NCBI GenBank assembly: GCA_900128585.1
Contig: LT642160.1
Coordinates: forward strand, 1-52,210
Direction of reading: 5' to 3'
From: Stramenopiles sp. TOSAG23-3
Lineage: Eukaryota
Length of the DNA stretch: 52,210 nt
Each line of letters starts with the position of its first letter. The stretch's first letter is position 1. Shown here piece by piece: positions 8,511 through 27,117 of this stretch. Under the pieces are notes generated by a model. That model was given only the letters and a program-made list of their open reading frames with translations, was not told the origin of the DNA and ran no database searches. The translations under genes and the position numbers were made by a program.

Positions 8511-9749
8511 ATGGTGAAGAAACCCCTGGTTGGTTTAGTGTGCCGAGAGGGTGAAATGCTGAACGTTCCACTGTCGTTGGAGTTTATTTACTTGTTGCCA
8601 GGGGACGTGTCTAGGGGATACAACGACTGGGATTTCAAAAAATTGCAAAGTAAATTGCAGGCGATTAAACAGCGCGGTCGCCAGGCTATAGTGAGGATCA
8701 ATTTTGGTGCATCTTGTGAGGCACTTGCGGGCGGGGATGACCACAACCCCGAACCCTTGTCGCTCCCAGCTTGGTTACAAAAACACGAGGAATGGGTCGA
8801 GTACGAGCGAGTGTATGAAAACAATCGAAAAGTGCTTTACCCGGGATGGGATTGCAACTCTTGCTACCCGTGGTTTTGCAACGAACTCCTGAGAGCTGTA
8901 GGGGGGGAGCTAGACGGTGACAAGCGCGTGGCCTATTTGCAAGGTTTTGTTGGCCACTGGGCGGAGGGCCACGTTTACAATGGGAAAACCCAAGGCTTCG
9001 AAGACGACGTGCGAAGTGGGAAAATATTCCCTTCAAAATCTCAATATCAAGCATTATTAGAAAATGCATCGAAGGCATTTGACACGTTAAGGTGGAGCGT
9101 TGGCATTAGTTTAGGTCACGAATTGTACAGTCCCAGCAATTTTAGAAGCTTAGGAAATTTTGGAGTGTTTAATGACACTTGGTTGGACGAGAATTCAGGG
9201 ACGGAGTCCTGGAATGAGTCACTCACACGTGCGTTGGGGGAAGGGCGATGGGAACTTGCTCCTCGAGGTGGCGAGATAAGCTGGGCGGGGAAAAGCAGAG
9301 AAAATGGCCTCAAACTCATTCTTGAAGGTACCGTCTTGCGCAAAGATCACATGACATACATGTTTGGGTTTGATCAGGACCGGTACTGCTACGGCCACAG
9401 TCCGGAAGATTTAGCAAGAGCATCCGAGAAGTTTGGATATAATTTTGAGGTGTCTTGGAAATGCGCCACTAGTGGGACCGACCTGTTTTTAAGAAACAAC
9501 GGTGTTGCGCCGATATACTACCCAACGTTTGTAAGTGTTGGTGGAAATCTTGTTGTGAAGGACGGAAGACGGGTAGATCTGTCGGCTCTCTTGCCCAATC
9601 AGTCGCTCTTCATTTTCTGCGAGTATTCGCTTCTAAACACAGAGCGCCCTGTACTTGTTTGCGACAGATGTGTTGATGGGCAAACTATTCCGTATGAAAT
9701 AATAAAATACCCAACCAGCAGTAGAAAACGTCAGGGCTTATCGTCATAA
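8511..9749 (+). CDS. DUF4832-like putative glycoside hydrolase (bacterial-type)
   Basis: GFVGHWAEGH, FGVFNDTW, RWELAPRGGEI, KFGYNF and LRNNGVAPIYY resemble DUF4832-containing TIM-barrel proteins. First ATG at 8511. Confidence 0.6.
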   Translation: MVKKPLVGLVCREGEMLNVPLSLEFIYLLPGDVSRGYNDWDFKKLQSKLQAIKQRGRQAIVRINFGASCEALAGGDDHNPEPLSLPAWLQKHEEWVEYERVYENNRKVLYPGWDCNSCYPWFCNELLRAVGGELDGDKRVAYLQGFVGHWAEGHVYNGKTQGFEDDVRSGKIFPSKSQYQALLENASKAFDTLRWSVGISLGHELYSPSNFRSLGNFGVFNDTWLDENSGTESWNESLTRALGEGRWELAPRGGEISWAGKSRENGLKLILEGTVLRKDHMTYMFGFDQDRYCYGHSPEDLARASEKFGYNFEVSWKCATSGTDLFLRNNGVAPIYYPTFVSVGGNLVVKDGRRVDLSALLPNQSLFIFCEYSLLNTERPVLVCDRCVDGQTIPYEIIKYPTSSRKRQGLSS

Positions 9750-10372
9750 GGTAATATAAAAACAAATTATTTAAAAAAACAAATATTATATACGTATTAA
9801 TTAAAAACAAAATACTGGCGGGTATATAAGTATAAATTAAAGATATCTCGGTCATTTAAAAGGATTACCAATCCACCTATCGATTCGGTTCATGCATGGA
9901 GTACATCTGAGAATGATAGTCAAGACTAAGTGACAAGAAGGATATTGAGTATAATGTAAAACCACAAGAGCAGAGATTAGGCCGGAACATTCAATAGTGT
10001 ACCCAATCCTAAAATTAATAAGCCAATAATAAGAGCCACACAGGAAGACTGTAGAGTGCCAAGAAAACCAAGAAGAGTCATCATTCCATTTTTTCTTTTT
10101 TTTTTCATCACACCACCACCCACAAAAATACAAAAAATTAATAAAAAAAACAACCCGGTAATAAAAAATTATAGTGTGCTAAAATAATTCCTAATAAATT
10201 TTTGGTGTCCGGTACGATTTAATACCGGTAACAGACAGAGCAACCATTTCATTCCAAAAAAGTACCAGCACGCACAAGAAAAGCGATCAAGTGTTTCGCG
10301 TAAAACTTACGAGAGATTTTTATTATCAAATTTAACAACTGGAGCTGTGATATTTACAAATTTTCTTGGAAA

Positions 10373-11584
10373 ATGTTGTTCAAGGTTTTTCTTTTGATCC
10401 TGGCCACAGCGTCGGCCGCGGACATACTAAACGTAAAGAACTGTCCAGGTGTAGTCGCGGACGGAGACACCGACGACACGGCAAGCATACAGAAATGCAT
10501 CGATGCCCAAAGTGGGTCATGCGGAAAAATTTTATTCCCAATAGGTCGTTACATGATAAAGGGCTCGATTTTTTTCGACAGCTGTGGCGGACAAATCGAA
10601 ATTGAGGGCGAAGGAGAAGAAACGGTCTTCATCTGGGGTTCGCCTGCCGACATGTTTGTTTGGGGAGACAAAGCAGGCGTTGTGGGTCGGTCCAGTTTTG
10701 CTTCGTTCTCAATTCTTGCGTCTGTGGTGTCGAAGGCACCGAATGCCACCGCTATTCGTTTTACAAATGGGCTGGTCCAATCTACAGTGAACGATATCCT
10801 GGTAATATCCGACGACCAAGCCAAAATTTACCCGATGAATGTTCTGGACCTTGGCTTGGTCACCGACACCGTCCAAATAACGAACCCCCTGTTTCAGAAT
10901 GTGCATGGCACGGGCATAAAGGTGGGCAGAGGGTCGGAAGTTAGGGTAGTGGGAGGCCGTATCTTTGGGCAGTTCGATAATAAAAACTGGATAAAAGGGT
11001 CTGTCGGGATGCATGTGACAGGGAATAATGGTGGCGTCCACATCGTTTCTACTGACCTGATCGCACTGGAGAATGGGCTTTTGTTGGAAAATTCAAATGG
11101 CCAAGGATCGAATCGCGAAATTTTTCTGTCGCAAACAACGGTGGATTCAAACTGGAGGGGTTTAACAGTAAATGACAACAGTTACGTGGACTTCTCCGGT
11201 GTATGGACCGCCAGTTCTGGGGACGCCAATATTTACGTTGATGCGAATGCGTCCCCCATAATTTCGCTGCATGGTGGAACCATTTTCAATTCCGGCACCT
11301 ACAGTGCCGGAGGCAACAACGACGCGATAGCTTGGCATGGGACTGGGTCGTTCGTCCTTTCGGGTGTGACTGTGCGAAACAATAAAGGGCGAGGAATATG
11401 GATTGATAATCCGTCCATGTCGAACTTTATCGTTTCGGGTTGCAACTTTTATGGAAACGGTATGAATTTGGATATAGTAGGTGATAGTTACACCATCACT
11501 GGATCCATCTTTCAAAGTGGACAAAAGGACAACAAAATCGGACCTTCAAAAAATGCACAAATTGGGCTTAACATTGGTTTGTGA
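10373..11584 (+). CDS. Secreted right-handed beta-helix protein (pectate lyase 3 / pectin-lyase-like superfamily)
   Basis: Signal peptide MLFKVFLLILATASAA, then NVK..GVVADGDTDDTASIQKCID...ILFPIGRYMI and Asn/Gly-rich beta-helix repeats. Confidence 0.8.
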   Translation: MLFKVFLLILATASAADILNVKNCPGVVADGDTDDTASIQKCIDAQSGSCGKILFPIGRYMIKGSIFFDSCGGQIEIEGEGEETVFIWGSPADMFVWGDKAGVVGRSSFASFSILASVVSKAPNATAIRFTNGLVQSTVNDILVISDDQAKIYPMNVLDLGLVTDTVQITNPLFQNVHGTGIKVGRGSEVRVVGGRIFGQFDNKNWIKGSVGMHVTGNNGGVHIVSTDLIALENGLLLENSNGQGSNREIFLSQTTVDSNWRGLTVNDNSYVDFSGVWTASSGDANIYVDANASPIISLHGGTIFNSGTYSAGGNNDAIAWHGTGSFVLSGVTVRNNKGRGIWIDNPSMSNFIVSGCNFYGNGMNLDIVGDSYTITGSIFQSGQKDNKIGPSKNAQIGLNIGL

Positions 11585-11888
11585 ATTCAAAAAAATATTG
11601 TCGTCTATTATTTATAGGATATATATATTTTAGGATAATATTTAAGTAATAAAAATGTAGCTTTCTCGTGTACCGCGAAAATGAATCTGCTCCTTTTGTA
11701 TCCATTAAAGGTTTACGTTCCTTCATGTACTGCGAAATGATCTGTACCATTGTGATTTTACTAATCTCAATATATATACCCCTGTCACGTAATAACAGCC
11801 AATTTTTCGTTTTTATTTAATAAATGTACTACTTATTTTTACCGGAACTCAGAGGGGTCAGGAAGGTATGGATGGGACTTTCAAACGC

Positions 11889-14172
11889 TTATCGTGCCAT
11901 TGTCATTGCCAGCAGGTACCGGTACGATAGCTTGAAGGCCTGCTTTGCTTCTTTTATTTCCTCTCTTTTTCTTTCTCTTTCTTCTCTTTTTCTTTGTTTT
12001 TCTTCTCTTTTTCTTTGTTTTTCAGCTTCTCTTTCTTCTCTTTTTCTTTGTTTTTCAGCGCCTCTTTCTTCCCTTTTTCTTTCTCTTTCTTCTCTTTTTC
12101 TTTGTTTTTCAGCGTCTCTTTCTTCCCTTTTTCTTTCTCTTTCTTCTCTTTTTCTTTGTTTTTCAGCGTCTCTTTCTTCTCTTTTTCTTTCTCTTTCTTC
12201 TCTTTTTCTTTGTTTTTCAGCCTCTAACTCTCTCAGAGCCAGTTGTTTTTTTTTTTTTTTTTTTTTTTTGGGCGGAATAAATCGACGTTTGGCAACTTTC
12301 GTTAACCAATGTTCTGCCGCATCCCTGTCGTCGAATGTTTTACTGTAACCGACACTTTTTACGGTAATCTTCGCGTGATACCGGGTTCCCTTTGAAGTCT
12401 TCCTTACTAAACAATGCCCATATTTTCGTCGTCTCCGTTTTGGTCGTTTCCGTTTCAGATGATTTGACTGTCTGGGCGGAACCAATCGACCTTCGGCGAT
12501 TTCCGTTAACCAATGTTCTGCCGCATCCCTGTCGTCGAATGTTTTACANNNNNNNNNNNNNNNNNNNNNNNNNNNNNNNNNNNNNNNNNNNNNNNNNNNN
12601 NNNNNNNNNNNNNNNNNNNNNNNNNNNNNNNNNNNNNNNNNNNNNNNNNNNNNNNNNNNNNNNNNNNNNNNNNNNNNNNNNNNNNNNNNNNNNNNNNNNN
12701 NNNNNNNNNNNNNNNNNNNNNNNNNNNNNNNNNNNTCCTCGTCCTCGCTGGACTCTTCCTTGTCCTCGCTGGACTCTTCCTTGTCCTCGCTGGACTCTTC
12801 CTCGTCCTCGCTGGTCTCTTCTTCCTCCTCGCTGGACTCTTCTTCTTGTGTTGACTTCTTGCTGTATTTAGTAGGTGCGGGCGGAACCAATCGACCTATG
12901 GCAACTTCCGTTAACCAATGTTCTGCCGCATCCCTGTCGTCGAATGTTTTACTGTAAACGACATTGTTTACGGTTATCTTCGTGCGGTATCGGGTTCCCT
13001 TTACAGTCTTCTTTTCTTCACAATGCCCATATTTTCGTCGTTTCGGCCCTGCCGGTGGAAATAAGTATTTTCCCATTTGCGACATAAGACGTACGCTCCT
13101 CTTTTCCTCGCTGGACTCTTCTTCTTCCTCGCTTGGCTTAAAGTACATTGGCGTTGGGCATCGAACAACAACGCGGCGCCTCTTGTCTGTGGGCGGTCGT
13201 CTCCGCTTCAGTGGTTTTGACTGTCTGGGCGGAACCAATCGACCTTCGGCGATTTCTGTTAACCAATGTTCTGCCGCATTCCTGTCGTCGAATGTTTTTG
13301 TGTAACCGACATTGTTTCTGGTTATTAGCGCGCGGTATCGGGGTCCCTTTCCATTCATTCTTACTGCACAATGCCCATATTTTGACTTCTTGTTGTGTTT
13401 AGTAGGTGCGCTCGGAACCAATCGGCCTTCGGCAACTTCCGTTAACCAATGTTCTGCCACATCCCTGTCGTCGAATAATTTACTGTAACCGACTTTGTTT
13501 ACAGTTATCCTCGCGCGGTACCGGGTTCCCTTTGAATTCTTCTTTACTTCACAATTCCCATATTTTCGTATTCTCCGTTTTGGTCGTTTCCGTTTCAGAT
13601 GATTTAACGGTCTGGGCGGAACCAATCGACCTTCGGCGATTTCCGTTAACCAATGTTCTGCCGCATCCCTGTCGTCGAATGTTTTACANNNNNNNNNNNN
13701 NNNNNNNNNNNNNNNNNNNNNNNNNNNNNNNNNNNNNNNNNNNCGACCCGAGGTGTTTCCTCTTTTCCTCGCTGGACTCTTCTTCTTCCTCGCTGGACTC
13801 TTCCTCGTCCTCGCTGGACTCTATCGCGTCCTCGCTGGACTCTTCTTCTTCCTCGCTGGACTCTTCCTCGTCCTCGCTGGACTCTTCCTCGTCCTCGCTG
13901 GACTCTTCCTCGTCCTCGCTGGATTCTTCCTCGTCCTGAGGTTGTGTTGACTTCTTGTTGTATTTAGTAGGTGCGGGCGGAAACAATCGACCTTCGGCAA
14001 CTTCCGTTGCCCAATGTTCTGCCGCATCCCTGTCGTCGAATGTTTTACTGTAACTGACATTGTTTACGTTTATCTTCGCGTGGTACCGGGTTCCCTTTGC
14101 AGTCTTCTTTACTTCACAATGCCCATATTTTCGTCGTCTCCGTATCAGTGGAATTGGCTGCAATGAGTTCAT
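11889..14172 (-). CDS. Multi-repeat protein with at least 7 AP2/integrase-N-terminal-like DNA-binding modules, acidic EEESSED tracts and a charged C-terminal helix; spans two N gaps; start uncertain
   Basis: Modules YGxCxxxxxxKGxRYxxxIxxxxVxYxKxFDDRxxAEHWxTxxAxxRxxPx at 14127-13975, 13688-13614 (partial), 13562-13410, 13379-13227, 13031-12879, 12548-12474 (partial) and 12422-12270. Basic NLS-like linkers. In-frame ATG at 14172. Confidence 0.7.
11960..12222 (-). repeat. Coding tandem repeat, 54-bp unit (AEKQRKREERERKREERD)
   Basis: Three full copies plus truncated copies in the translation. Confidence 0.9.
13765..13937 (-). repeat. Coding minisatellite, 21-bp unit (EDEEESS); second tract at 12736-12846
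   Basis: Repeated CTCGCTGGACTCTTCCTCGTC on the + strand. Confidence 0.9.
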
Positions 14173-14897
14173 TAGTTTGCTTATCGGAGAGTTATTTGCC
14201 CTAGATTCTTCCAGCAGTTTTGCCACACAGTCCTCGCACTTTTGTGCTGAAAATGAAAAGAAATTTTCTGCTTTTGTGAATATCAGCCAAGTCTTTCACA
14301 TCTGCGAATCAGACCCATCATGTTTTCATACAAATTTTATTAGAAGACAAGTCACGGTACGGTACCAGATACTGGTGCGTATGGTACACGTACCTGTTGT
14401 ATTGTAAAACCTGAACTCTTACCGTACTCACTCACATGAAGGAAAACTTTATTTAAAATTTAAAAAATTCGTAAAAAAATACAGTTTGCTGCTATTCAAT
14501 AAATAAAATTGTATTTTTTAAATGGGAAGAAAAAAGAATTCCGATGTATTATTAATATTAAAATAACAGTCGTCTACGTAGCAGACAACAACAACAAAAA
14601 ACGACAGATGGCGAGAGAATGAGATGAAGAGTACGTAGTATTAATACGTAAGGTGATCAAAAAATAATAATTATAATTCAAACAAAAAAAAAACAAAAAA
14701 ACAAAAAACAAAAAAAAAATAGAAAAAAAAAATATTTAAAAATTTTTGATTTTATTAAATACCTTGGTAATATTATACTACTAACCATTAAAAAAAAGAA
14801 GAAGACAGTTTCTTCGTGTTGAAACATTGATCGGACGGGACGGGAATTTGCAATTGGAATGACCGTTTGTTTATCAATTTTATGACATATGTATTGA

Positions 14898-17241
<2,344 letters not shown>

Positions 17242-25012: not shown

Positions 25013-25656
25013 GCGCACGGAAAAAGAAAGAAAAGAGGCTAACGGTGGTGGTGCAGACGAAGGTCGAAGGTGCAAAAAATTAACAACCACTTAACACAGG
25101 GGGATAGGAGAATGGGCCAAATCGATTTAATCCATGAAAACAAATGCAAAATAGAATTAATAAAAATATGAAATTATTGAGAGAGACATCAAGTATTATG
25201 TCTATAAATGTATTTATAATATAGAAGACGACGACTATTATAAAAAAATAATAATAATAGAAGAGCCTCCTCGAGCGGTACGCGGATCCTCGTAGATAAT
25301 AATTTAAATTAATATGATGATGATGATATGATGATGAAGAAGAATGAGAAAAATAATAAAATAGCTCTTCATGTGATGATGATGCGTTGTTTATTTTTTT
25401 TGTTGTTGTTGATTGTTGTACCCCAATAAAATAATACGTAATAATATTGGAGGAAAGAAGAAGAAAAGAAGAGAGAAAAAAAAAGGGGGGTTACTTTTTA
25501 AATTACAATACGACACAAAAGTTGGCATGCATGGGCATGCATGGACAAATTGGGGTATTTATTGGGACGAGATTGTGTTCCGAAATTTTCCTGTTCATAA
25601 CTGTTTGACAAAGCAAGAAAATAGCCAAACAAAAATTATCCTTTGAGAAGACTACG

Positions 25657-27117
25657 ATGTTGAATTCGTTCCTGTTGTTAGTTGGGGTATTTTTCGCGTC
25701 GGTATCCGGTCATGGAAATATGATAACGCCGGCGCCACGGCAAGCGCACAACCAACGGTTTGATTCTCGGAATAAGTGCGGGTGCGCGTCGACGCCAGAA
25801 GGTTGCTATTCCAATGCTACCTCTCCTGGGACGTATTGCGGACTAGGCTGTATTGGGGAAGCATGCTTATACTACCAAATTGGGTGCTTCCAGTCCTGCC
25901 CTGTTTGTTCGTACACGGGCAAGACGCTCTACCCCGTCCTTGAAGATCTCAAAAAGGCAGGAAATTGCCCCGTACCACCGAAACCGACACTGGAGCCCAG
26001 AATGCGCACGTACAACGTTGACAACTTGTCCAAGCGCGGGGACTGGACCCGCTGGAACCCTTGGCGTTCTCCAGGCACTGCCGGGAAAGGGAACCTAGCA
26101 TTTCAACCCTGTGGCGTGAACTCTGGGTCCGACCCGTCGTTTCCAGACCCTCCCGCGTCTGGGCAAAAGCAGTTCGCAAACGGAACTGACTTGCCGCCGA
26201 CGAGGGAGAAAGCGACGTGGAAGATAGGCTCTGCAGTTGATGTAGAATGGTCAATCTACGCGAACCATGGCGGCGGCTATTCTTACAGATTGTGTAAAAA
26301 GGTCCAGGGAAAAGACGCGACGGAAGAGTGTTTTCAACGAACGCCGTTAGACTTCGCGTCCGACTCGACGACCATCAAGTACTATGATGGTTCAAGGGCA
26401 CCCTTTGATATCAAGGCAGCCACCACGAATGTTGGCACATGGCCAACGGGATCGCAGTGGCGGAAGAATCCAATCCCAATGTGCAACTGCGACATGGGGA
26501 CCGGTTGCCACCAGAAGAAAGACCAGGTCGACTACAAGCGGTTGCCAAAACATACGATTGAAATGATGAAAAATGAATTTTATCGTTCCAACGCGAAGAA
26601 GACGAAAAATACCGACGACAAGAAGGCAGGGGGCAAACACTGCACAGCCGTTAAGGAAGACCAATGCGGGGACATTACGGGCAAAAATACGTGCTTGTCT
26701 TGCTCTGCGGACTCGGCGTACGATTGCAAGAAGTGTTGCCCAGGGTTGGTGAGGGTGAGTAAAGGCGAGTACAGCTGGTGTGTCAAGAAAGGCAGCAAAC
26801 CATCTGCGGAATGTTCTGAATCTAACCCAGAAGGGTGCTATTTTCTCCCGTACAACAAGACTTACTTGGCGCCTGGGCAGGACACGCCGTTGTGCGAAAC
26901 GGGGCTGATGTTTCCATCGCTATGGGACGATGGGTATGGCAATGGGTTTGGACAAGAGGGGTATGAAGGTTACGGTTCGTTTATGTTCTCCATGACGGAC
27001 AAAGTCCAAATCCCGAGCGATATCGAGACTGGAGAGTACAGCCTGAGTTGGAGGTGGGACTGCGAACAAACCCCTCAGGTATGGAATAGCTGTGCCGATA
27101 TCAACATTGAGAAATAG
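25657..27117 (+). CDS. Secreted lytic polysaccharide monooxygenase-like protein (histidine brace; AA13-like core with Cys-rich insertions)
   Basis: Signal peptide ending VSG followed by HGNMITPAPR (His1), then VDVEWSIYANHGGGYSYRLC (second His), ATEECF and LSWRWDCEQTPQVWNSCADI. Confidence 0.85.
   Translation: MLNSFLLLVGVFFASVSGHGNMITPAPRQAHNQRFDSRNKCGCASTPEGCYSNATSPGTYCGLGCIGEACLYYQIGCFQSCPVCSYTGKTLYPVLEDLKKAGNCPVPPKPTLEPRMRTYNVDNLSKRGDWTRWNPWRSPGTAGKGNLAFQPCGVNSGSDPSFPDPPASGQKQFANGTDLPPTREKATWKIGSAVDVEWSIYANHGGGYSYRLCKKVQGKDATEECFQRTPLDFASDSTTIKYYDGSRAPFDIKAATTNVGTWPTGSQWRKNPIPMCNCDMGTGCHQKKDQVDYKRLPKHTIEMMKNEFYRSNAKKTKNTDDKKAGGKHCTAVKEDQCGDITGKNTCLSCSADSAYDCKKCCPGLVRVSKGEYSWCVKKGSKPSAECSESNPEGCYFLPYNKTYLAPGQDTPLCETGLMFPSLWDDGYGNGFGQEGYEGYGSFMFSMTDKVQIPSDIETGEYSLSWRWDCEQTPQVWNSCADINIEK

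What the first reader, a model, noticed from the sequence alone, without database searches (positions are those of the whole stretch)
12270..14127. Tandem array of at least 7 AP2/integrase-like DNA-binding modules with variable strands: candidate modular DNA-recognition protein
Seen: five complete 51-aa modules, YGHCEVKKTAKGTRYHAKINVNNVSYSKTFDDRDAAEHWATEVAEGRLFPP / YGNCEVKKNSKGTRYRARITVNKVGYSKLFDDRDVAEHWLTEVAEGRLVPS / YGHCAVRMNGKGPRYRALITRNNVGYTKTFDDRNAAEHWLTEIAEGRLVPP / YGHCEEKKTVKGTRYRTKITVNNVVYSKTFDDRDAAEHWLTEVAIGRLVPP / YGHCLVRKTSKGTRYHAKITVKSVGYSKTFDDRDAAEHWLTKVAKRRFIPP, plus two cut by gaps. The FDDRDAAEHW core is nearly invariant while the N-terminal half differs between copies. Known: the pattern RYxAxI...KTF....A..W matches the three-strand-plus-helix fold of AP2/ERF and integrase arm-binding domains, which read DNA through the beta-sheet, and classical AP2/ApiAP2 proteins carry only a few such domains. 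Inference: a recently expanded array diversifying at DNA-contacting positions, conceptually like zinc-finger or TALE arrays. No integrase or nuclease catalytic domain is visible.
Basis: partly seen in the sequence, partly recalled or inferred. Interest (0 to 1): 0.8.

Follow-up and report, generated by a model that had tools for sequence, protein, structure and literature searches.

The report
Seven AP2-like domain array protein
A marine protist gene encodes seven recently multiplied copies of a small AP2/integrase-type domain, most like those on homing endonucleases, whose likely DNA-facing side varies most; it is a plausible fast-evolving DNA reader, but binding is untested and seven-domain AP2 proteins are already known.

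Summary
The array is real. The minus strand holds 5 complete and 2 gap-cut 52-aa modules. A gap-free protein of the same gene from another assembly (P0004) has exactly 7 plus a half-module stub, and other sequencing runs support one gap fill. One module models as three strands plus a helix (pLDDT 89); the best-fitting PDB match is the Plasmodium SIP2 AP2 domain (Z 5.2, rmsd 2.0). It does not match Pfam AP2. Its nearest outside relatives are the C-terminal repeats of HNH and GIY-YIG homing endonucleases and nuclease-free five-module proteins. No nuclease or integrase is attached. Variation concentrates on the inferred free sheet face (p=0.003 against the interleaved helix-facing positions), and module 6 is a recombinant of modules 4 and 2. 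Against the TALE-like reading: linkers are 9-115 aa, overall dN/dS is about 1.7 but not distinguishable from 1, and binding is untested. Two paralogues fuse the module to HA repeats. A seven-AP2 green-algal gene is in print, and this scan earlier noted six-AP2 bacterial arrays on other DNA. Verdict: new variant of a known kind.

The parts
11889..14172 (-). Coding region of the array gene, intronless as far as seen. Probable start is the ATG at 14172. The stop at 11889-11891 applies only if the tail is in frame.
   Evidence: The Met lies at the same place in the C2321 paralogue. P0004 covers the whole array as one ORF. A possible splice acceptor near 14247 was seen but not tested.
13975..14130 (-). 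Module M1 (52 aa)
   Evidence: identical protein in L033 and P0004
13744..13974 (-). Acidic linker 1, 21-bp repeat units (8.2 copies); one unit fewer in P0004
13689..13743 (.). N gap 1 (55 N). P0004 places 38 aa here: end of the linker and first half of M2
13614..13688 (-). Module M2, second half
13566..13613 (-). 16-aa Lys/Arg-rich linker (net +9), NLS-like or backbone-binding (inferred)
13410..13565 (-). Module M3, the one modelled: strands 4-10, 13-22, 25-31, helix 34-45
13227..13382 (-). Module M4, after a 9-aa linker. M3 and M4 fold as separate domains
13035..13226 (-). 64-aa mixed basic/acidic linker, partly shared with the C2692 paralogue
12879..13034 (-). Module M5. Free-face position 26 is Val here and Gly in P0004
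12736..12878 (-). Acidic linker 2, 21-bp repeat units
12549..12735 (.). N gap 2 (187 N). P0004 places 95 aa here: acidic repeats, a half-module stub copied from the end of M3, and the first half of M6
   Evidence: The stub junction is seen as a loose end in runs X4 and X6, and M6-type letters in X4
12474..12548 (-). Module M6, second half, identical in 75 of 75 nt to that of M2. The whole M6 is a recombinant: residues 1-23 nearest M4, residues 24-52 nearest M2
12270..12425 (-). Module M7, after a 16-aa basic linker (12426-12473)
12246..12269 (-). 24-nt A run (poly-Lys). Its length sets the frame of the tail; P0004 reads on in another frame
11892..12245 (-). Charged E/K/R coil-like tail made of 54-bp repeats (3.7 copies), in frame in this assembly only
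11639..11815 (.). Dispersed non-coding repeat just 3' of the gene; a copy also follows the C2321 paralogue. Link to the gene not shown

Best explanation
A lineage-specific, non-catalytic nuclear DNA-binding protein of about 700-830 aa. Its module is an AP2/integrase-arm-type domain taken from the C-terminal DNA-binding repeats of HNH or GIY-YIG homing endonucleases, probably of viruses. It was multiplied recently by unequal crossing-over that also recombines half-modules. Each module would lay its three-stranded sheet in the major groove; positions 6, 8, 17, 19, 21, 26 and 28 would set the preference for a short site. Closely linked groups (M2-M3-M4, M6-M7) would read extended sites, while long acidic linkers let M1 and M5 act at a distance or recruit chromatin or transcription partners. 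Shown: sequence, copy number, homology, predicted fold, recombinant module, distribution of variation, presence in RNA libraries. Inferred: which face is free, DNA binding, nuclear location, viral origin, regulatory role.
For: Fold: pLDDT 89, three strands and a helix. VIA matches to SIP2 AP2 (6sy0, Z 5.2, rmsd 2.0, 48 aa), TEM1 AP2 (7et4, Z 4.8) and the AtERF1 GCC-box domain (2gcc, Z 4.3). The M3-M4 model hits viral proteins at E 8e-6 and 1e-5, a phage AP2/ERF protein at 2.5e-4, and HNH endonucleases of phages and giant viruses at E 0.003-0.02. Sequence: of 20 hits among 1.84 billion proteins, 6 are HNH_3 endonucleases with 3-4 C-terminal repeats of this module, 1 is GIY-YIG type, 2 are nuclease-free five-module proteins. 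Precomputed PF26003 (Integrase_N_phage) is listed for P0004 and 8 of the 13 other hits. Free-face entropy 1.07 against 0.38 for interleaved helix-facing positions (p=0.003) and lower still for exposed helix positions (p=0.0009); 16.7 of 42.7 amino-acid-changing substitutions fall on 21% of sites (p=0.004). Positions 6, 8, 19 and 21 fall by my strand register on AtERF1 R150, R152, E160 and R162, named as base readers in PMC6631176. The four M4/M6 differences seen in run X4 cluster in codons 6-9 (p about 0.001-0.003). Paralogues pair the module with HA repeats and a C2H2 finger. RNA runs hold the stretch.
Against: No binding data. All PDB Z scores are under 8, which the tool calls a possibly common arrangement; Foldseek ranks dsRBDs first (E 0.09 or worse). 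No PDB sequence match. Face assignment rests on strand register and hydrophobic alternation, not on coordinates. Omega is about 1 even on helix-facing codons, and omega of 0.5 or less is rejected for the module as a whole, so purifying selection is not visible by this measure. Synonymous change is also high in free-face codons (0.54 per site). Exposed-helix conservation may come from regional gene conversion. No contig context shows that the endonuclease relatives are viral. Relatives above 50% identity were found only as near-identical forms of this genome's three genes. No silent control was laid on the RNA runs.
Confidence: 0.6

Rival explanations
1. A young, nearly neutral expansion: a captured endonuclease fragment inside a repeat-prone ORF, amplified by slippage and unequal crossing-over. 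It is kept only loosely folded and has no selected set of DNA targets.
For: Omega 1.7 is not distinguishable from 1 (p=0.08) and is about 1 in helix-facing codons. There is a half-module stub, a truncated second module in the C2692 paralogue, a frameshifted chimera (P0005) and an unstable A run before the tail. No orthologue from a clearly different species was found.
Against: Interleaved codons of the same strands change at different rates (21 changes in 11 free-face codons against 8 in 12 helix-facing ones), which drift alone does not predict. All seven modules are 52 aa with no stop. The core Gly3, Ile20, Val25, Tyr27, Lys29 and Phe31 is invariant in the 8 aligned copies, including paralogues. 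The one length difference from P0004 inside the array is a whole 7-codon unit.
Confidence: 0.22
2. The modules bind RNA (structured or double-stranded), as dsRBDs do and as AP2 domains do in the Toxoplasma mitoribosome.
For: Foldseek's top PDB rows are dsRBDs. The top VIA row and two other high rows are Toxoplasma mitoribosome chains; AP2 proteins there bind rRNA (PMC11652630). That these chains are the AP2 proteins is my inference.
Against: The model has no N-terminal helix of the dsRBD fold (fold from general knowledge). The best rmsd among the top rows is the DNA-bound SIP2 AP2 (2.0 A). Sequence relatives are DNA endonucleases. Partner domains in paralogues are HA and C2H2.
Confidence: 0.09
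3. The gene is cargo or a remnant of a mobile element or integrated virus, not a host regulator.
For: The module's relatives are mobile endonucleases. A dispersed repeat lies just 3' of this gene and of the C2321 paralogue. The assembly holds giant-virus-like contigs.
Against: The neighbours are ordinary host genes (beta-helix protein, FMN oxidoreductase, kinesin, flippase), with the oxidoreductase in the same place in L033. No transposase, integrase or capsid family among the long ORFs scanned. No second repeat arm in 14131-14700. The two repeat copies are only 83% alike.
Confidence: 0.07
4. An assembly or scaffolding artefact that strings alleles or collapsed copies together.
For: Both N gaps start at the same offset inside an identical 75-nt stretch. 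No contig of the four runs laid spans the whole segment. P0004's contig may share reads with this assembly (unknown).
Against: P0004 has the same order without gaps. Modules differ by 8-19% in DNA. Overlapping contigs of runs from different studies tile 12785-13670 with 0-2 other letters, apart from the M6-type piece, and two runs show the stub junction.
Confidence: 0.02

Closest known systems
HNH-AP2 and GIY-YIG-AP2 homing endonucleases of phages, giant viruses, cyanobacteria and ciliates (described in PMC10448857 and PMC3794426, passages read)
   Same: Same module, already in 2-4 tandem copies after the nuclease; shared Gly, Tyr/Phe-x-Ala-x-Ile, Lys-Thr-Phe and Trp pattern; closest outside sequence and structure hits.
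   Different: No nuclease domain; seven copies 70-80% alike; long acidic linkers; sits among host genes.
ApiAP2 and plant AP2/ERF factors (PfSIP2 6sy0, AtERF1 2gcc, TEM1 7et4; Coccomyxa CsuAP2-007 with seven AP2 domains, PMC4982375)
   Same: Three strands and a helix; nuclease-free eukaryotic protein with several domains in low-complexity linkers; likely origin from mobile elements.
   Different: No Pfam AP2 match and hhalign probability 2.7% to the genome's own canonical AP2, so a separate recruitment is likely. The canonical GCC-box Arg/Trp set is not kept by my register. ApiAP2s have one to four divergent domains (PMC6631176).
Integrase arm-binding domains (Pfam PF26003 Integrase_N_phage, PF14657 Arm-DNA-bind_4, PF02920 Tn916 Integrase_DNA)
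   Same: PF26003 precomputed on P0004 and relatives; Atlas feature neighbours at 0.88-0.89 (leads only); PF14657 hits two endonuclease relatives.
   Different: Arrayed and with no recombinase; PF14657 finds nothing in this genome.
Nuclease-free five-module proteins P0007, P0030, P0021 (unannotated, origin unknown)
   Same: Array of the same module without a catalytic domain; P0007 and P0030 also end in a charged tail.
   Different: About 35-40% identity, short linkers, more divergent repeats; a separate clade in the tree.
PRDM9, KRAB zinc-finger and TALE arrays (general knowledge)
   Same: Recent repeats, recombination between repeats, variation concentrated at putative contact positions.
   Different: Different fold; irregular 9-115 aa linkers; no effector domain recognised; no code shown.

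Membership tests
Pfam AP2 (PF00847; plant AP2/ERF, ApiAP2) | Match to the AP2 profile | tested here: not met
   No AP2 row for any module or segment at E up to 0.5-5. The genome search with PF00847 found two other loci, both under the cut-off, and not this one.
Pfam AP2 (PF00847; plant AP2/ERF, ApiAP2) | Three antiparallel strands followed by one helix | tested here: met
   VIA Z 5.2 to 6sy0, 4.8 to 7et4, 4.3 to 2gcc, all middling scores.
Pfam AP2 (PF00847; plant AP2/ERF, ApiAP2) | GCC-box contact set R150, R152, W154, E160, R162, R170, W172 | tested here: inconclusive
   By hand register the positions hold variable residues and no Trp. No structural superposition was available, and ApiAP2s also depart from the set.
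AP2/integrase arm-binding superfamily (PF26003, PF14657, PF02920) | Profile match to an arm-binding family | tested here: inconclusive
   PF26003 is listed as precomputed for P0004, with no score shown; the family is not in the local library. Atlas 0.88-0.89. PF14657 gives 0 matches in the genome.
AP2/integrase arm-binding superfamily (PF26003, PF14657, PF02920) | Structural match to solved Tn916 or lambda integrase N-terminal domains | tested here: inconclusive
   Not among the 50 rows shown; an unlisted family is not excluded.
AP2/integrase arm-binding superfamily (PF26003, PF14657, PF02920) | Sequence-specific major-groove binding through the sheet | not testable with these tools
   Needs PBM, SELEX or a structure.
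HNH / GIY-YIG homing endonucleases with AP2-like repeats | Homologous C-terminal repeat | tested here: met
   E 5e-10 to 4e-4 for six HNH_3 proteins and 1e-6 for a GIY-YIG-type protein.
HNH / GIY-YIG homing endonucleases with AP2-like repeats | Catalytic nuclease domain | tested here: not met
   None in the window segments or in gap-free P0004.
TALE- or zinc-finger-like programmable arrays | Uniform head-to-tail repeats with fixed short linkers | tested here: not met
   Linkers 95, 16, 9, 64, 115, 16 aa; M3 and M4 modelled as independent domains, pTM 0.45.
TALE- or zinc-finger-like programmable arrays | Variation concentrated at putative contact positions | tested here: met
   with the face inferred from strand register.
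TALE- or zinc-finger-like programmable arrays | Positive selection at those positions | tested here: inconclusive
   2.6 against the module-wide synonymous rate (p=0.009), but p=0.15 in a codon model with a class-specific rate; recombination can inflate both.
dsRBD | Helix-three strands-helix topology | tested here: not met
   The model starts with a strand; one helix only. Foldseek dsRBD rows have E of 0.09 or worse.

The most novel reading that the evidence does not exclude
The host has domesticated a viral homing-endonuclease DNA-binding repeat as a recombining, positively selected reader array, a PRDM9- or KRAB-ZNF-like system on an AP2/integrase fold. About seven sheet positions per module set the site, half-modules are swapped to make new specificities, and the targets are the giant viruses or mobile DNA of this lineage. 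It would be one arm of a wider kit in which this genome shuffles endonuclease-derived Zn domains, HA repeats, C2H2 fingers and this module.
Probability: 0.15. Interest if true: 0.8.

Novelty: new variant of a known kind. Interest (0 to 1): 0.48.

Why it matters
Seven folded modules that are 70-80% alike and differ mostly on one sheet face are a natural allelic series for working out how AP2/integrase-type domains read bases, which is hard with the divergent domains of ApiAP2s. The gene also looks like a very young, separate repeat of the route from homing endonuclease to transcription factor proposed for plant AP2, caught while the mobile relatives are still recognisable. If the modules bind different sites, the fold becomes a candidate scaffold for modular DNA recognition. 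If not, it is one more lineage-specific expansion of a mobile-element domain, which is common in protists (PMC3537659).

Tried and rejected
Pfam on modules and segments gave only sub-threshold DUF1391 and composition hits; PHROGs on the 8 modules gave at best phrog_99 HNH at E 0.014. PDB sequence searches with one module and with the 20-row profile found nothing relevant. Tn916 and lambda integrase domains were not among the rows shown. Of the 20 hits I dropped 5 (P0006, P0014, P0016, P0018, P0023) as repeat-driven; none holds the module in the per-domain scan. Viral context for the relatives was not obtained: IMG/VR scans with P0009, P0021, P0011 and A1 found none; P0030 gave one 24-aa match and P0052 six nuclease-only matches; of 79 HNH loci only 2 had a weak module hit. 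Prokaryotic genomes: 0 confirmed of 58 pattern matches. No HNH_3 or Arm-DNA-bind_4 match in the own, incomplete genome. No Rfam match in 9500-15000. No long inverted repeats around the gene other than A/T runs. The idea that the gene lies between two arms of the dispersed repeat failed on the 5' side. An early idea of strict A/B alternation of modules holds for the linkers, but the tree supports only M4+M6. Parts of the stretch not covered by X17 say nothing. Atlas scores under 0.9 are leads only. Searches failed to parse omega; one search gives the values. No description of this protein or module family turned up in seven literature searches; Balaji 2005 was not held, and no supplements were read.
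Full report
Setting. The window is the whole contig C6009 of a 28.4-Mb, 7,088-contig eukaryotic assembly. Its long ORFs are ordinary host genes: Sir2, FMN oxidoreductase, a flagella-associated Ig-like protein, kinesin, exostosin, DHHC, flippase (23 proteins scanned). Runs that hold the locus are marine, apart from four from an unnamed organism. The label 'uncultured marine stramenopile' comes from earlier notes of this scan; I did not test it.

Observation. The five quoted modules and two cut copies are present on the minus strand. A profile of 8 modules searched against 1.84 billion proteins returned P0004 (722 aa, E 5e-226), the same gene from a 43,947-bp JGI/IMG contig without gaps. It has seven whole modules and a half-module stub. 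It differs from the window by 7 substitutions and one 7-aa acidic unit over the aligned segments, and fills the gaps with 38 and 95 aa. Of 24 runs listed, 20 hold the middle segment, from 12 studies, 6 of them RNA. I laid 4 of the 24. Contigs of X4 (metatranscriptome), X3 and X6 cover 30, 28 and 29 of 30 bins; X17 (oligo-dT) has one 270-nt contig at depth 2. X4 and X6 show the stub junction as a loose end, and X4 carries the letters that give M6's first strand. So the array is not an assembly expansion. Transcription is suggested but not shown, because no silent stretch was laid.

Anatomy. The likely start is the Met at 14172, which lines up with the first in-frame Met of the C2321 paralogue. 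The order is M1, 95-aa acidic linker, M2, 16 aa, M3, 9 aa, M4, 64 aa, M5, 115-aa acidic linker with the stub, M6, 16 aa, M7, poly-Lys. In this assembly a 54-bp-repeat charged tail follows in frame; P0004 leaves the A run in another frame, so the C-terminus is open. M6 is a mosaic: residues 1-23 differ from M4 at 3 positions (8-10 from the others), residues 24-52 differ from M2 at 1 (4-8 from the others). The ten modules of this genome's three genes form one clade (99/95); deeper forks are mostly unresolved with 50 columns, and duplicate rows were left out.

Fold. AlphaFold2 on the 8-row alignment gives strands 4-10, 13-22, 25-31 and helix 34-45, pLDDT 89. M3-M4 without an alignment folds as two such domains with a disordered link (pTM 0.45). 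Against 48,161 PDB representatives only 3 reach Z 5: a Toxoplasma mitoribosome chain (5.5, rmsd 4.4), a Bacillus phage protein (5.3, rmsd 3.0) and the SIP2 AP2 domain (5.2, rmsd 2.0, 48 aa). TEM1 AP2 scores 4.8. These are middling scores, and Foldseek puts dsRBDs first without significance. The two-module model gives three viral hits under E 0.001, one named AP2/ERF domain protein, followed by HNH endonucleases of phages and giant viruses.

Relatives. Of the 20 hits, 2 are this lineage (P0004, P0005), 6 are HNH_3 endonucleases with three or four C-terminal repeats, 1 is GIY-YIG type, 2 are nuclease-free five-module proteins, 4 are short single-module proteins, and 5 were dropped as repeat artefacts. 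PF26003 (Integrase_N_phage) is precomputed for 9 of the 14 proteins. Pfam AP2 does not match; the genome's two canonical AP2-like domains are elsewhere and align poorly (hhalign 2.7%). HNH plus C-terminal AP2 is a known endonuclease class and the proposed source of plant AP2 (PMC10448857 and PMC3794426, passages). That these particular relatives are viral rests on architecture and; my contig scans did not place them.

Paralogues and context. The module search in the own genome gave 10 matches from 11 candidates: 7 here, 2 on C2692, 1 on C2321. C2692 has HA repeats followed by two modules, the second truncated; C2321 has one module, a C2H2 finger, HA repeats and the same acidic repeat. HA domains gave 19 matches on 9 contigs. 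P0005 joins a Cys4 Zn-type domain to a copy of M1. That Zn domain also heads two HA arrays and a family of endonuclease VII-like genes (phrog_1035, E 2e-28 and 1e-23 for the 2 scanned), several on contigs with intronless RNA polymerase, DNA polymerase B or TBP and many orphans, which look like a giant virus in the assembly. P0005 comes from a 650-bp contig and may be a chimera. Together this suggests a lineage that reuses endonuclease-derived domains (inference).

Where the modules vary. I assigned faces from the hairpin register and the hydrophobic alternation; no coordinates were available. Over the 7 modules of P0004 the 11 free-face positions have mean entropy 1.07, the 12 interleaved helix-facing positions 0.38 (permutation p=0.003), and the free face also exceeds 10 exposed helix positions (p=0.0009). 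In the 5 complete window copies, 16.7 of 42.7 non-synonymous changes fall on the free face, which holds 21% of such sites (p=0.004). Against the module-wide synonymous rate this is omega 2.6 (p=0.009). But only 9.3 synonymous changes exist, 4.3 of them in the same codons. A codon model on 8 rows gives omega 1.7 overall (p=0.08 against 1), about 2 for both free and other codons when each class has its own rate (p=0.15 and 0.11), and about 1 for helix-facing codons; free-face codons change about three times as fast (tree length 4.2 against 1.4). So the pattern fits diversification at a binding face but does not prove positive selection; relaxed surface, a constrained core and gene conversion in the second half could give much of it.

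Mechanism. Most likely (0.6) this is a non-catalytic DNA-binding protein whose modules read short sites through the sheet, as AP2 domains do (PMC6631176, passages), with basic linkers adding affinity or nuclear import and acidic tracts acting as spacers or partner-binding regions. Rivals are a near-neutral young expansion (0.22), RNA binding as in the mitoribosomal AP2 proteins (0.09; PMC11652630, passages), mobile-element cargo (0.07) and artefact (0.02).

Novelty. It works like a multi-domain AP2 factor but is not a member of Pfam AP2 and not an endonuclease. ApiAP2s have one to four domains, yet a seven-AP2 gene of Coccomyxa is reported (PMC4982375, passages), most AP2 families are tied to endonucleases or integrases (PMC4117751, passages), and recruitment of mobile-element DNA-binding domains is a recurring theme (PMC3537659, passages). 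PMC12768974 (passages) has no AP2 mention and was not used. Magnani 2004, Wuitschick 2004 and Balaji 2005 were seen only as reference titles. Seven searches found no description of this protein. Earlier notes of this scan describe six-AP2 bacterial arrays on other DNA, unchecked here; no look-alike of this sequence was on file. What is new is the subtype, its youth, the recombinant module and the one-sided variation. Verdict: new variant of a known kind, interest 0.48.

Noticed in passing
window:11639-11815, partial copy near window:9873-9980; G000:C2321:2700-2845: A dispersed non-coding repeat of about 150-250 bp, MITE-like, with an end motif that recurs inverted and two internal 14-bp sub-repeats (11666, 11723). 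40 of 382 candidates were scored, 75-96% alike. It lies just 3' of both this gene and the C2321 paralogue in the same relative orientation.
   Followed up: partly
G000:C6566, C6476, C732, C806 (L146-L150, L152): Giant-virus-like contigs inside the assembly (intronless Rpb1, DNA polymerase B, TBP, many orphans) carrying several endonuclease VII-like genes each.
   Followed up: partly
G000:C403, C3192, C2416, C6883, C5543, C3519, C681, C2321, C2692: An expanded set of HA-repeat proteins; two begin with the same Cys4 Zn-type domain as the virus-like endonucleases.
   Followed up: partly
P0007, P0030 (18 members), P0021 (5 members): An unannotated family of nuclease-free proteins made of five of these modules, of unknown origin.
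   Followed up: partly
window:15010-17241 (+): The 2,4-dienoyl-CoA-reductase-like FMN oxidoreductase is split into two overlapping frames near a G run at about 15613-15622, in this window and also in L033: a shared frameshift, small intron or error.
   Followed up: no
window:14247-14320 (-): A pyrimidine tract ending in CAG near 14247 looks like a splice acceptor, and similarity to the C2321 paralogue starts there; a spliced upstream ATG would add about 27 aa.
   Followed up: no
window:36377-39385 (+): One ORF fuses an exostosin GT47 domain and a GT49 domain.
   Followed up: no
window:27481-29838 (+) and 25609-27117 (+): A secreted-looking carbamoyltransferase (CmcH/NodU type) next to an LPMO-like protein.
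   Followed up: no
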